A stretch of 64,000 nucleotides of DNA from NCBI RefSeq assembly GCF_006345805.1, contig NC_043012.1, positions 9,486,001 to 9,550,000 on the forward strand, in the 5' to 3' direction. A program made the translations under genes and the position numbers. Source of the DNA: Octopus sinensis. Taxonomy: Eukaryota. The notes under the pieces are model-generated. The model ran no database searches, had not been told where the DNA came from, and saw nothing but the letters and a program-made list of their open reading frames with translations. Positions 8,554 to 52,326 of the stretch are shown piece by piece; the first letter of the stretch is position 1, and the number at the start of each line of letters is the position of its first letter.

Positions 8554-10439
8554 TAATATTTTCTTAAAGTTTCATGGGTAACAAACATTGTTATCTAAAT
8601 TCTAGTGGTTGAGCTTTATTTCTTTTGTAGAAAAAGGTTGCTTCTCGGAAAAATTCTACTAACTGATAAATATAAAAATGTGAAGACATACATATACACG
8701 CACGAAAACACAAGTATTCACTCAGAAATATGATTATATATACGTGAGTGTATGCTTGTGTGTATGTGCGTTTCTTCGTTCTATATATAATTAAAACATA
8801 ATCAGTAGATATTCTGATATATTTTGTTATATTTACTGGTCGTAATAATATTATATTATTACGTCCAAGCAATACGTCCAAGGCAAGCTGATATAACATA
8901 TGAAACTTAGAATATATTCATAAAATAAATGCACATCAGAAACCTGAGAACAAAACATAAATATAATTTATATTCACATCAACGCATCATTGTTGGAGAA
9001 AAAAGCTAATATCTGAAATGTCAAGGGTATTGTTTCCTCTCCCTGCATTTAAAACTGACTTTAACGACATCTATTTTTGTTTCTCCAAAACTATTTATAT
9101 ATAACATCTTCCAGACAATACTATCCGCTTCACTGAGTTCACATACTCATAAAAAAGCATTTATTCACAAAAATAACAACGCTGTCAATAACTTCATTAG
9201 CTTATAACAGAGTTCCGGGATGTACACCACCAATGATAAAAGCGAATAACAGAATAACAATAGTTATGCTACAATGAAATCGTTTCAGCCGAGAGTCATA
9301 TAAAAACAGATTGATCGGTGGAGGGAGACGGGGGTGTCATTTGATTACCATTGGTGTTCAGTGTAGGAGATGGAGTCATGCATTATATAACAGTAATACA
9401 TTTGTGGATAGCATATAGTCGTTCCACACACACACATACACACGCACATGTATATATATATATATATATATATATACAATTATACATATATATAAATATA
9501 TATAAGTATTTATATATACATACACATATGCATGTATATATATATATTTACATATATATATTCATGTATATATACATACACATACACACATATACATATT
9601 TATATATGTAGAAAATGGATACATACACACGCCCACGGTTATATGTATATATGTATATATATACATATACATGTATATATATTTATGGATATATATATAT
9701 ATATATATATATATATATACATATATATATATTATATATATATATATATATTTATGGATATATATATATATATATATATAATATATATATATATATATAG
9801 ATATATATATATATATATATATATATAATATATATATATTTTTATGGATATGTATGTAAAATTAACAACGGAAATAACAAGGGAAACAAAATAACAGGAA
9901 AGACAAAGTATAATTTTTACTTTGATCCTCAAGGAAGAGAATTATGCAGAAGTGTCTTTGACGTTTCGGACTTAGGATCTTCTTCAGATATACACTCAAA
10001 AGGTTTAATTAGAATAAAAGTAAGATGATACTAATAAAGAAATAAAACGCATTTAAAGTACCATGTAATTATTAGAGCGGAATATGTGCTTCTATTCACG
10101 TTCATTGTATATATATTTTGTTATAATAACATAATTACTTTACATACTGAGGTCTAATCTTATAAATATAAATGATGGCTATTGATATTCTACATCACAG
10201 AATATTACTGTACTCACAGACCATTAACCAGTTTGCACATGTATAATATTAGTCTTTGCTGCATAATAATATTCATTTATATTATCATGAAATAAATTCA
10301 AATGAAATTTAACAATAATTTCACGTCGTTTCTGCTACTTTCTTTGGTTACTATAAAATCGAAAGCAATCAGAGATATTTACCATTTTACTCTCCACTCA
10401 GTGAAACATGGAGTTGGTAAGAGCTACTCGGATGGCACA

Positions 10440-10561
10440 CAATATCTGAAGTGAAGTGCCTCTTCCAAGGAAACCACACGCCCGCCTGTCCGGGAATGTA
10501 AACCAAAGCCTTCTATATTTGTGAGGTGAGCAATCCTAATAATAACACAATGCTCCTTCAC
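10440..10561 (-). mobile_element. Degenerate tRNA-SINE head (type B)
   Basis: Minus strand gtgaaggagc...ggtttacattcccggacaggcg...ccttggaagaggcacttcacttca resembles the head at 51297. Confidence 0.4.
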
Positions 10562-11559
10562 AATTTATGCGTTGATACACAAACATACACACAAACATAA
10601 CACATACACATGCATGTTTATGTATATATATATATATATATATATATATATATTTGCATATATACACTCGTGGGCATACACACATCTACATGCGCATGCA
10701 GTTGCATGTGTATATATACAGTAGAAACGCTCCGAGGAAGATGCAAGGTGATGCACTATCACTCAGCTCTTCATATAGCAGAAAGAGCTGTAAGCCAATG
10801 CAGTAGGTTACGTTAATCGTGTCATCTCAGTATTCCATAAACTCGTACTTCGCTTTGTATTCGTCAAACGCTTTATTGTGAAGCAAATGAAAATTGGGTT
10901 CTGACATGTTATAAGTATCGGTATGACTCAGAGATAATAATATATACATACATGAATGAATGCAGACATACATACATACACAAAAACATACAGATATATA
11001 TATGTGTGTGTGTGTGTGAGTGTGTGTGTGTGTACATATATACATACGTACACATATATGTGTGTATGCATTTACGCATATGTACACACACACATATATA
11101 TGTGTATATATAGTGAGAATTTACAAAAAAGCCCAAAAGACGAGACGGGTGTGTAAATAACAAATAGATGTATTTGTTTAATTATTGGGAAGTGAGAAAG
11201 TCTTATACCATTCGATCCTACGCTCTTCGACAGAAAGGAACACAGAAATAAACAGGGATATAAAATGAAATAAATAAAAGGGTTTGTTGCTAGCGATCTA
11301 TCATGCATGAATTATATATATATATATATATATATATATATATATATATATATATATCATACATATATATATATAATAATAAATATTAGGGAATAATCCA
11401 AATTTACAGGGAAAAATCAGATTTAGGATTGAATTCAATTTTATAGTAAAATATAATATTATATTAAATTAGAGACAAAACAACTATTATGCAAATCAAA
11501 CAAAGAAAGACTTAAGCCAATACATAAAATAATTTATATAAATTAAATTTAATTAAAAT

Positions 11560-11613
11560 AACCACTACGATCGTTTCGTGTCAGCACTTCTATGAGACAT
11601 TCTTCAGGTGGTT
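11560..11613 (-). ncRNA. Type I hammerhead ribozyme
   Basis: Minus: aaccac CTGAAGA atgtc-loop-gacac GAAA cgatcg TA gtggtt. Perfect 6-bp stem I, palindromic stem III, A-C mismatch at the base of stem II. Confidence 0.8.
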
Positions 11614-11677
11614 TCAAAACCTTCTTTGCAAGTTTTAAACTATGAACTTAGTTTAAAACTTGCAAAGAAGGTTTTGA

Positions 11678-11731
11678 AACCACCTGAAGAATGTCGCATA
11701 GAAGTGCTGACACGAAACGATCGTAGTGATT
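11678..11731 (+). ncRNA. Type I hammerhead ribozyme (mirror copy)
   Basis: aaccac CTGAAGA atgtcgcatagaagtgctgacac GAAA cgatcg TA gtgatt. One mismatch in stem I. Confidence 0.75.
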
Positions 11732-51038: not shown

Positions 51039-51196
51039 AGGCGTAGCTGTATGGGTAGAAGTGTTCTTCCAAACTACATGGTGCCGGGTTCAGATTCTCT
51101 GCGTTCTACCTTAGCCAAGTGTTTTATAGTTTAGCCACGGGCTGACCAAAGCTTTGTGAGTGGATTGGTAGATGGAAACGGAAAAAATCCTGTCGT
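51039..51196 (+). mobile_element. Diverged SINE family A, 5' half (putative 3' half at 52365-52505)
   Basis: aggcgtagctgtatgggtag...gagtggattggtagatggaaac..cctgtcgtata. Confidence 0.75.
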
Positions 51197-51296
51197 ATAT
51201 ATATATTATATATATATATATATATATATATATATATATATATATATATATATTATATATATATATATGTGTGTGTGTGTGTATGGGTGTGTGTGT

Positions 51297-51545
51297 GGAG
51301 GTGCGTGGCTTAGTGGTTAGGGTGTCAGCATCATGATCGTAAGATTGTGGTTTCGATTCCTGGACCAGGCGACGCGTTGAGTTCTTGAGTAAAACACTTC
51401 ATTTCACGTTGATCCAGTTTACTCTGATGACAAAAATGAGTAACGCTGCGATGGACTGGCGTCCCATCCAGCTGGGGAACACATACGCCATTGAAACCGG
51501 GAAACCAGGCCCATGAGCCTGGCTAGGCTTTAAAAGGGTGCATTT
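51297..51545 (+). mobile_element. tRNA-derived SINE (head type B, tail type X)
   Basis: TGGCTTAGTGG and GGTTTCGATTCC boxes. Tail gagtaacgctgcgatggactggcgtccc...gaaaccgggaaacc..cccatgagcctgg is shared with 33-150 (-). Confidence 0.88.
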
Positions 51546-51572
51546 ATATATATATATATAATATATATATAT

Positions 51573-52326
51573 AAAATAGTAAAAAGTGAAAAAACTACAG
51601 AAGGCTTGTTTTAAAAGGTTAAAACAAATATATTTGAGTCATTATGTCTGAAGAATGTTATAAATTTTTTTCATACAATGACATAGTTTTTGAAGAAATG
51701 ACCGGTTTCGCGTTCAACTTTTCAAATTTCTTACATCGTTATGTTTACGTTGAGAAGTGTGAAGAAAGAGTTCCAGATAAGGGGAGGCAATAAATGATTT
51801 CTTCCGATGTAAGGGAGATAATCGCTCAATATTTTTTGCCTTTTTGGGGAGTGAGTTTCTCTGTATAAGAATGTTGGAATGGTTAAGTTTGGGCTTGTAT
51901 TTTTCAATGAAGAATGTTTCCTTGTTTAGTCTAATTTGTGTTGGTGTTTCGATAGCACATTGGTAAAACGGAAAGATTAAAAATTGTGGTAGTAGTTGCT
52001 TTGCGCATTTCTCAATGTCCTCACTAAAGGGTATCATTCTGTATCCTGGGAATGCAATCTGTTGTCGATGCAGTATGCATCTACGTCTGAGTGATAGTCC
52101 CGTGGACCCCACGTAGTTTTGGTGGCAGCCCGAGCATTTTATGACATAAATTATGTTTTCAGAGGCACAAGTAAAATTAGATTTGATCTTGAATTTCTGT
52201 CCCTCTTCAGACATAATGACTCAAATATATTTTTTTTACCTTTTAAAACAGGCCTTCTGTAGTTTTTCACTTTTTACTATTTTCTATATATTCGACCACG
52301 TGCTTTCACACACCAACTTTCTCACC
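51573..52326 (-). mobile_element. Penelope-like element fragment: GIY-YIG endonuclease C-terminus between inverted ~80-bp pLTR arms
   Basis: ORF 51714-52214: FTCASENIIYVIKCSGCHQNYVGSTGLSLRRR..H...R..KE.FFI..Y.P.LN, typical PLE GIY-YIG. Arms 51573-51654 and 52204-52283. Unpaired extension 52284-52326. Degenerate HHR at 51694-51731 (-). TA tracts on both sides. Confidence 0.88.

What the first reader, a model, noticed from the sequence alone, without database searches (positions are those of the whole stretch)
9955..51731. Unusually dense population of hammerhead ribozyme cores (about ten in 64 kb)
Seen by eye, with CUGANGA/GAAA/NUH and pairing stems: 11560-11613(-), 11678-11731(+), 17708-17795(-), 19836-19926(+), 22535-22576(-), 34791-34859(+). 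Variant or degenerate: 9955-9990(-), 11200-11239(-), 35072-35109(+), 36981-37026(+), 51694-51731(-). Nearly all have a palindromic stem III (cgatcg, catatg, caattg, ccgg, cg). Established: minimal type I HHRs with palindromic stem III mark Penelope-like elements and cleave best as dimers. Inference: several distinct PLE lineages seeded ribozymes into (TA)n microsatellites, which would give a very large genome-wide ribozyme load.
Basis: partly seen in the sequence, partly recalled or inferred. Interest (0 to 1): 0.72.

Follow-up and report, generated by a model that had tools for sequence, protein, structure and literature searches.

The report
Penelope hammerhead stubs, two odd variants
The eleven motifs are real and are mostly leftover ends of Penelope-type jumping genes that carry tiny predicted self-cutting RNAs, a known arrangement; the unusual parts are one family with over 13,000 copies that has fixed a core change expected to slow cutting, and one jumping gene whose coding region begins behind a tRNA-like sequence that is likely its promoter.

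Summary
All 11 sites exist. A hammerhead descriptor finds 7 in the window and 17 in 1 Mb of fixed-position genome samples. With stem III left free, palindromic linkers number 6 and 16, against 0 in shuffles. The genome carries about 46,000 motifs (27,000-74,000), so this window is a roughly sixfold hot spot.

The sites are 10 insertions of about 8 repeat families. Four groups are tied to Penelope-like (PLE) ORFs: 51694, 35072/11200, 36981, and 11560/11678 (22535 related). This is the known minimal-hammerhead class of Cervera and De la Pena 2014.

- 51694 is an intact U3-A8 variant.
- 35072 is the standard form of a family with U at core position 6 (13,792 exact matches, 140 with A6), which keeps the NUH rule.
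- 36981 is the terminal repeat of a Poseidon-type PLE: tRNA-like head, then the ORF start through the ribozyme. It is not in (TA)n.
- No same-family tandem pair lies on one strand, so these copies likely do not cleave in place.

Cleavage is untested. Unreviewed notes of this scan reported both variants before, on other DNA.

The parts
11560..11613 (-). Minimal hammerhead, intact core, palindrome A-CGATCG-T, predicted cut after 11566. Left arm (about 11375-11641) of one inverted two-armed insertion.
   Evidence: family 822 candidates, 40 scored; 5' inverted piece in 22 of 32 copies; one family copy lies 70 nt behind a GIY-YIG-like ORF in L012
11678..11731 (+). Same ribozyme in the right arm (11650-11825), one stem I mismatch, predicted cut after 11725
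17708..17795 (-). Minimal hammerhead with long stem II, palindrome A-CATATG-T; repeat family with inverted pairs; no ORF link shown
   Evidence: (2140 candidates, 40 scored)
19836..19926 (+). Minimal hammerhead with long stem II, palindrome A-CAATTG-T, 30 nt before (TA)n; young family (listed full-length copies 95-98% identical) with inverted pairs; no ORF link shown
   Evidence: (1678 candidates, 40 scored)
22535..22576 (-). Hammerhead of a family related to 11560 (shared 3' end); this copy lacks one base before the core; partial inverted arm at 22599-22710 (+)
   Evidence: 990 exact matches; 100 of 100 listed have the extra base
34791..34859 (+). Minimal hammerhead, intact, palindrome A-CCGG-T; repeat family; no ORF link shown
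   Evidence: (1055 candidates, 40 scored)
35018..35207 (+). 3' end of a Neptune-like PLE family; hammerhead 35072-35109 with family-fixed U at core position 6 (35080), predicted cut after 35104; ends in (TA)n
11115..11304 (-). Older, damaged copy of the U6 family (hammerhead 11200-11239; GAAA and palindrome mutated)
9955..9990 (-). Decayed hammerhead-like motif with A6, weakly similar to the U6 family's relatives; no second copy found
   Evidence: (1 of 1 candidate is the site itself)
36825..36892 (+). tRNA-like head (A-box and B-box motifs at tRNA spacing) of a Penelope/Poseidon-type terminal repeat
   Evidence: not called as tRNA by ARAGORN or Rfam
36952..37079 (+). First about 42 codons of the Poseidon-type ORF, containing the hammerhead (36980-37027; U4A in this copy, intact in the family); the optional tail is absent here
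51575..52310 (-). 5'-truncated Neptune-like PLE: GIY-YIG end (52208-51828), U3-A8 hammerhead 51694-51731 with 2-bp stem II, 3' end in (TA)n, inverted arm at about 52204-52310
   Evidence: 16,924 candidates, 150 scored; 2,246 exact matches

Best explanation
The window holds ten insertions from about eight repeat families, each the end of what is shown (four groups) or inferred (four families) to be a Penelope-like retrotransposon, carrying a minimal type I hammerhead motif that is predicted to cut only as a dimer and so is likely silent in these lone copies.

Mechanism. Inferred from PMC11167929 and PMC8557442: the PLE protein nicks AT-rich DNA and primes reverse transcription at sites 3' of the ribozyme on uncleaved RNA. 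Shown: copies run 30-350 nt past the predicted cut, so they are not bounded by it. Shown: copies are 5'-truncated and, in most families, carry an inverted arm. Inferred: most families prefer (TA)n, and this window has about twice the genome's density of TA runs, which explains part of the local excess. Inferred: selection acted on the ribozyme only in transposing master copies, as the covarying palindromes, stem II changes, free N7 and NUH rule suggest; the scattered stubs decay neutrally.

Two families depart from the published picture. A Neptune-like family has fixed U6 (shown); weak or protein-assisted activity is inferred. A Poseidon-type family has a tRNA-like head in front of its ATG (shown). 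A transcript starting at that head and primed internally near codon 40-52 would yield the many SINE-like short copies (inferred).
For: Shuffle and reversed controls. RT + CX4CxxC + GIY-YIG ORF directly before the 51694 motif in 804- and 706-aa copies. U6 motif behind a PLE ORF and C-rich 3' UTR in L073, with similar sequence in L212, L211 and L044. Head directly behind the GIY-YIG end in 16 of 19 distinct loci, two of them probably one insertion. One open frame from the motif's ATG into the RT in L340 and L341, and from the third codon onward in L342 (3 of 6 stretches fetched). 11560-family copy 70 nt behind a GIY-YIG-like ORF. 5' inverted piece in 3 of 4, 22 of 32, 4 of 9 and 16 of 32 PLE-type copies against 1 of 147, 1 of 115, 2 of 161 and 1 of 47 for ordinary SINE probes. 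U6 family: G at position 17 in only 100 copies, C or U in 4,670, of 13,792.
Against: No cleavage was measured. No ORF was found beside 17708, 19836, 34791 or 9955 within 1.5-kb flanks (15, 12, 12 and 1 loci). The 11560 link rests on one locus and a feature-based GIY-YIG call (40% of that cluster's members). The U6 family shows no inverted arms (0 of 8 and 0 of 33). The 11560 and 17708 families have a mismatch at the base of stem II instead of G10.1-C11.1. The local excess (about sixfold) is larger than the TA-run excess (about twofold). Monomer folds are mostly no better than shuffles (9 of 11 stretches with z above -2), as expected for a dimer motif but no support. RNA-seq lays showed no start or end pile-up at the cut.
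Confidence: 0.85

Rival explanations
1. The tRNA-headed element at 36825-37079 is an independent SINE that borrows PLE enzymes, not just the short product of the PLE itself.
For: 58 of 62 intact heads outside the PLE-selected loci have no PLE sequence upstream. 0 of 57 tails run on into shared sequence. A box in 52 and B box in 48 of 75 heads. 9 hits in 8 loci per Mb.
Against: Head, (AAT)n, ATG, ribozyme and tail are the same sequence that flanks the autonomous ORF on both sides. Internal priming on a transcript starting at the head gives the same short product without a separate master. The sharp 5' end coincides with a 12-nt palindrome in the master, where fold-backs occur.
Confidence: 0.25
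2. The U6 motif is catalytically dead and is kept only as a folded signal (for example a binding site for the PLE protein) or by descent from a few founders.
For: A6C cut rates strongly in Mg2+ (PMC3088659 section 8; PMC7151607 passages). Catalytic mutants did not affect PAc insertion in vitro (PMC11167929).
Against: Across subfamilies whose flanks diverge, the core is the conserved island. Position 7 takes all four bases and position 17 takes A, U or C but G only at background level, which is the cleavage rule. Subfamilies are few independent events, so this is suggestive only.
Confidence: 0.4
3. The motifs are non-LTR retrozymes that spread as circular RNAs from tandem repeats.
For: Tandem arrays of hammerhead-bearing repeats exist elsewhere in the genome (140-nt and about 558-nt spacing).
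Against: No window site lies in a tandem unit. Stem III is minimal. Ends are not at the cut site. Four groups are tied to PLE ORFs.
Confidence: 0.05
4. The local cluster is kept by the host to process transcripts near the GPCR gene at 13444-14583.
For: Window density is about six times the genome mean and about four times the flanks.
Against: Mixed strands and families, four damaged copies, and no partner for dimers. The window was selected for this feature.
Confidence: 0.04
5. The motifs are chance matches in AT-rich DNA.
For: 9955 is single-copy and imperfect.
Against: Shuffle and reversed controls give 0 palindromic hits. Exact family patterns give 990-13,792 matches with 0 in controls.
Confidence: 0.01

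Closest known systems
Minimal hammerheads (min-HHR) of metazoan PLEs; Cervera and De la Pena 2014, PMC4209133 (read: main text parts 1-2 of 4; supplement parts 1-2 of 3)
   Same: Type I core, short stem I, palindromic stem III, extra base after A9 in several families, U3-A8 variant, mostly lone copies, opposite-strand pairs 100-700 bp apart, thousands per genome.
   Different: No cephalopod among the 56 aligned examples and none with U6 (their descriptor fixed that base). About 46,000 here against about 9,000 at most there, with a different descriptor. 6-8 nt palindromes are common here.
PAc, Penelope/Poseidon PLE of Anolis; Frangieh et al. 2024, PMC11167929 (read: parts 1-2 of 4, the main text)
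   Same: ORF starts at the hammerhead, optional 3' tail inside the ORF, copies made from uncleaved RNA, no RNA-seq ends at the cut.
   Different: The 36981 family has a tRNA-like A/B-box head before the ATG, its ATG lies about 34 nt before the core rather than at stem II, and most copies are the short terminal piece alone.
Neptune-clade PLEs; Craig et al. 2021, PMC8557442 (passages)
   Same: CX2-5CxxC linker before a C-terminal GIY-YIG, microsatellite bias, inverted 5' copies.
   Different: Clade assigned here by motif only, with no tree. One family has U3-A8 with a 2-bp stem II and another has U6.
A6C hammerhead of phage Bcep176; PMC3088659 (section 8 and passages), PMC7151607 (passages)
   Same: Natural change at core position 6 with low Mg2+ activity.
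   Different: A single phage sequence with C, against a genome-wide family with U.
Schistosoma Sm-alpha SINE-like elements and non-LTR retrozymes; PMC6765202, PMC7229834 (passages), bioRxiv 10.64898/2026.07.22.740005 (part 1 of 5 and passages)
   Same: Short repeats with hammerheads, one kind behind a promoter; retrozymes proposed to derive from PLE terminal repeats.
   Different: Those are tandem and non-coding. Here copies are lone or inverted, minimal, and the tRNA-headed piece is the start of a PLE ORF.

Membership tests
PLE minimal type I hammerhead | Core CUGANGA (or UUGANAA), GAAA and UH | tested here: met
   Met for 11560, 11678, 17708, 19836, 34791, 51694 and the 22535 and 36981 families. 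The U6 family is in the next row.
PLE minimal type I hammerhead | A at core position 6 (35072/11200 family) | tested here: not met
   140 of 13,792 exact matches have A6; 99 of the first 100 listed have U.
PLE minimal type I hammerhead | Palindromic, unstable stem III | tested here: met
   Not imposed: 6 of 7 window hits and 16 of 35 sample hits, against 0 in shuffles.
PLE minimal type I hammerhead | Stems I and II, with G10.1-C11.1 | tested here: inconclusive
   Stems present. G-C base pair in 34791, 35072, 36981 and 51694; mismatch or U-A at the base in the 11560, 22535 and 17708 families.
PLE minimal type I hammerhead | Lies in the terminal repeat of an RT-GIY-YIG element | tested here: inconclusive
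   Met for 51694, 35072/11200, 36981 and (one locus) 11560/11678. Not shown for 17708, 19836, 34791, 9955.
PLE minimal type I hammerhead | Self-cleavage as a dimer or with PLE protein | not testable with these tools
   Needs an assay.
Neptune clade (51694 and U6 families) | CX2-5CxxC linker before C-terminal GIY-YIG | tested here: met
   C-x4-C-x2-C in L141 and sister ORFs; partly decayed form in L073 and L119.
Neptune clade (51694 and U6 families) | Placement in an RT tree with named families | not tested
   No named reference set was fetched.
Penelope/Poseidon clade (36981 family) | PLE RT with C-terminal GIY-YIG and no CX2-5CxxC linker | tested here: met
   L300 551-aa frame, 29% identical to L141 over 436 aa, E 6e-40; no linker in L243 or L300. 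Pfam gave no hit at threshold.
Penelope/Poseidon clade (36981 family) | Terminal repeat overlaps the ORF start; optional tail; inverted 5' copy | tested here: met
   (tail in 34 of 94 copies).
tRNA-derived SINE (36981 family) | A and B boxes at tRNA spacing | tested here: met
   A 52, B 48, both 45 nt apart in 30, of 75 heads; box consensus recalled.
tRNA-derived SINE (36981 family) | Recognisable tRNA homology or cloverleaf | tested here: not met
   ARAGORN 0 in the window; no Rfam tRNA match at E up to 10 in two 301-nt scans; weak fold.
tRNA-derived SINE (36981 family) | Non-coding, separate from the autonomous partner | tested here: not met
   It is the 5' end of the PLE ORF.
tRNA-derived SINE (36981 family) | Transcribed by RNA polymerase III | not testable with these tools
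   No T4 run in the window copy or in 1,011 nt of L340, but this is not significant against codon shuffles (P 0.14).
Non-LTR retrozyme | Head-to-tail tandem units of 150-450 nt, each with a hammerhead | tested here: not met
   No window site lies in such an array.

The most novel reading that the evidence does not exclude
This genome holds two undescribed kinds of Penelope ribozyme end. One is a working hammerhead with U at core position 6, fixed in more than 13,000 copies and still obeying the cleavage rule. The other is a Penelope element driven by a tRNA-type (Pol III) promoter in its terminal repeat, which by internal priming spawns some 20,000 SINE-like copies of its own tip, blurring the line between SINE and autonomous retroelement.
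Probability: 0.4. Interest if true: 0.72.

Novelty: new variant of a known kind. Interest (0 to 1): 0.48.

Why it matters
The dense population itself is an expected consequence of a PLE-rich genome and adds a cephalopod-type genome with a high count to a known list.

The two variants are directly testable. If the U6 core cleaves, it loosens a textbook-conserved position, and descriptors that fix A6 would miss roughly a third of this genome's hammerheads. If it does not cleave, it is a natural experiment showing that a very successful PLE does not need catalysis, which bears on the open question of what PLE hammerheads are for.

A tRNA-type promoter inside a PLE terminal repeat would give a route by which an autonomous element makes SINE-like progeny without a LINE partner.

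Tried and rejected
- Rfam scan of the whole window: the 150 listed of 333 matches were microsatellite or hairpin noise (miRNA and one pestivirus model), with no hammerhead; 183 lower rows were not shown. Two 301-nt scans of the 36981 family gave no hammerhead or tRNA.
- First descriptor missed sites with a mismatch at the base of stem II and was replaced.
- The repeat finder was swamped by microsatellites.
- No RNA holder was listed for the 36981 stretch. Three unstranded RNA-seq runs of organism B gave reads on both strands and no start or end pile-ups; such libraries cannot show cleavage.
- A search with the 51-aa N-terminal peptide found no long frame among 150 scored of 35,485 candidates; the link came instead.
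- My first reading of 36981 as a pure non-coding SINE was dropped after those calls.
- T-run depletion was not significant.
- CTGANGA sites at 24967(-) and 51648(+) lie in repeats but lack a hammerhead 3' half.
- The script for dimer energies failed and the retry used wrong offsets for two of three sites; those values are not used.
- Lunse et al. 2016/2017 (PMC5785218, small hammerhead variants of PLEs) is not held; I saw only its citation, and it may already describe position-6 variants.
- Paper searches listed no paper whose title or abstract describes octopus PLE hammerheads, a U6 family or a tRNA-headed PLE. I read few of the listed papers, Repbase was not searchable, and bioRxiv supplements are closed.
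Full report
Setting. The window is G000:C16:9,486,001-9,550,000 of a 2.72-Gb genome, 34% GC and full of (TA)n runs. That it is an octopus rests on SINE types I recall and on earlier notes of this scan; no call named the species.

Observation. An intact-core descriptor with a palindromic stem III gave 5 window hits against 0.05 in local shuffles, and 15 hits in 100 fixed-position 10-kb stretches against 0 and 1 in shuffles. To avoid circularity I left stem III free and admitted the U6 and U3-A8 cores. 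Then 6 of 7 window hits and 16 of 35 sample hits were palindromic, against none in shuffles or reversed DNA. The 19 non-palindromic sample hits also exceed the shuffle mean of 4.7; I did not inspect them.

Density. The final descriptor gives 7 per 64 kb here, 5 per 200 kb in the flanks and 17 per Mb in the sample, or about 46,000 motifs genome-wide (95% range 27,000-74,000). The sample leans to the large chromosomes and omits unplaced contigs. Exact patterns agree. A generic core with the CG palindrome gave 22,025 matches against 2,410 in the control. The U6 family gave 13,792, the U3-A8 family 2,246 and the 22535 family 990. Together that is about 36,500 after removing the control and the 140 overlaps. 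The window is therefore a hot spot, about six times the mean, with about twice the mean density of TA runs.

What the sites are. They are ten insertions, since 11560 and 11678 are two arms that diverge from 11645.

51694 follows a GIY-YIG remnant. A protein search gave 16,924 candidates. Long copies encode RT, a C-x4-C-x2-C linker and the endonuclease, with the same motif behind them. Its core is U3-A8, already described in S. mansoni PLEs (PMC4209133). Its 2-bp stem II keeps G-C while the second pair varies C-G, U-A or U-G. It is intact, not degenerate.

35072 and 11200 belong to one family that lies behind a second Neptune-like ORF and a C-rich 3' UTR (L073, with similar sequence in L212, L211 and L044).

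11560/11678 has one relative 70 nt behind an ORF end that the Atlas places near GIY-YIG clusters (score 0.95, family on 40% of members). 22535 shares its 3' end.

17708, 19836 and 34791 are repeat families (2140, 1678 and 1055 candidates, 40 scored each) with inverted pairs, but no PLE ORF appeared in 1.5-kb flanks. 9955 is single and decayed.

Penelope hallmarks. A 5' inverted piece abuts 3 of 4 and 22 of 32 copies of the 51694 and 11560 families, and 4 of 9 and 16 of 32 copies of the 36981 family. Ordinary SINE probes give 1 of 147, 1 of 115, 2 of 161 and 1 of 47. The U6 family shows none (0 of 8, 0 of 33). Ten of 11 sites have (TA)4+ within 30-350 nt downstream; 36981 has none within 700 nt. 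Element ends do not coincide with the predicted cut, which fits PAc, where uncleaved RNA is the template (PMC11167929).

The U6 family. Only 140 of 13,792 exact matches have A at position 6, and 99 of the first 100 listed have U. All four bases occur at position 7. At position 17, G occurs in 100 copies and C or U in 4,670, with the rest A by subtraction. In reads and contigs of other runs the core is the conserved island between divergent flanks. A6C is known from one phage ribozyme with low Mg2+ activity (PMC3088659, PMC7151607). None of the 56 min-HHRs aligned in the PMC4209133 supplement has U6, but that descriptor fixed the base. I could not read Lunse et al. The pattern is what selection for cleavage would leave, but the subfamilies are few independent events. 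I put activity at about 0.6.

The tRNA-headed family. 36825-37079 reads A box, B box, (AAT)n, ATG, hammerhead, with an optional tail in 34 of 94 copies. I first took it for a SINE. Earlier notes e1-9598556 and e1-9904957 suggested a PLE terminal repeat, so I tested that. The head follows a GIY-YIG end by about 30 nt in L243, with the same upstream sequence in L225, L231, L143 and L252. It does so in 16 of 19 distinct loci picked by the protein, two of them probably one insertion. In L340 and L341 one frame runs from the motif's ATG through the tail into the RT, and in L342 from the third codon; these are 3 of 6 stretches fetched. L340 begins at the head, with no match to the GIY-YIG end upstream. 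The RT is 29% identical to the Neptune one and lacks the zinc linker, as in Penelope/Poseidon (PMC8557442).

Most copies are nonetheless short: 58 of 62 heads outside the protein-picked loci have no PLE sequence upstream, at 8 loci per Mb. A transcript that starts at the head and is primed internally, as PAc is, would give exactly this product. Against a Pol III reading, ARAGORN and Rfam do not call the head a tRNA, T-run depletion is not significant, and the sharp 5' end coincides with a 12-nt palindrome where fold-backs occur.

How it works. Shown: motif anatomy, families, ORF links for four groups, inverted arms, (TA)n ends. From the literature: single min-HHRs did not cleave and dimers cleaved weakly (PMC4209133); the PAc ribozyme cleaved only with protein and was not needed for insertion in vitro (PMC11167929). 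Inferred: no same-family pair lies in tandem on one strand here, and inverted arms put the two motifs on opposite strands, so these stubs are likely silent. Unstranded RNA-seq of organism B shows family copies inside other transcripts with no end pile-up, which cannot decide the point.

Verdict. The load is high but not of a new order. What is left of interest is the U6 core and the tRNA-like PLE head, both untested at the bench and both noted before by this scan on other DNA (unreviewed). Interest 0.48; new variant of a known kind.

Noticed in passing
window 13444-14583 (-): Intact 379-aa single-exon frame of a rhodopsin-family GPCR (7tm_1, E 2e-15), among the hammerhead insertions.
   Followed up: partly
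window 40180-40788 (+) and 43741-44424 (-): Two LINE 3' fragments with zf-RVT, 96% alike and facing each other about 3 kb apart.
   Followed up: no
L182-L210, just upstream of the match to window 35018: Most copies of the young U6 subfamily start sharply at the same point about 110 nt before the predicted cut, often right after (TA)n; a defined 5' end such as a promoter or a non-autonomous unit is possible.
   Followed up: partly
G000:C1:257510-258667, C1:399015-400170, C1:4791456-4792605: Other hammerhead families in tandem at about 555-560 nt spacing; these could form dimers and resemble retrozymes or partial tandems.
   Followed up: no
G000:C13:3695346-3695660: Three tandem copies of the 36981-family hammerhead at 140-nt spacing.
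   Followed up: no
L012 about 1230-1300 (+): A further hammerhead family with A-CCGG-T palindrome between two copies of the 11560 family.
   Followed up: no
window 24831-25110 (-): Deleted copy of an abundant repeat of about 500 nt flanked by (AAT)n; it was also found inserted in the (AAT)n of tRNA-headed copies (L245, L303). No hammerhead 3' half.
   Followed up: partly
window 62097-62463 and many other places: Very abundant SINEs (probes gave 47-161 hits per Mb), including a 184-nt tandem pair; used as controls.
   Followed up: partly
G000:C1:29521440/29525685, C1:95378302/95382040, C1:192315582/192319166: Opposite-strand pairs of the 22535 motif 3.5-4.2 kb apart, likely near-full-length elements; not fetched.
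   Followed up: no
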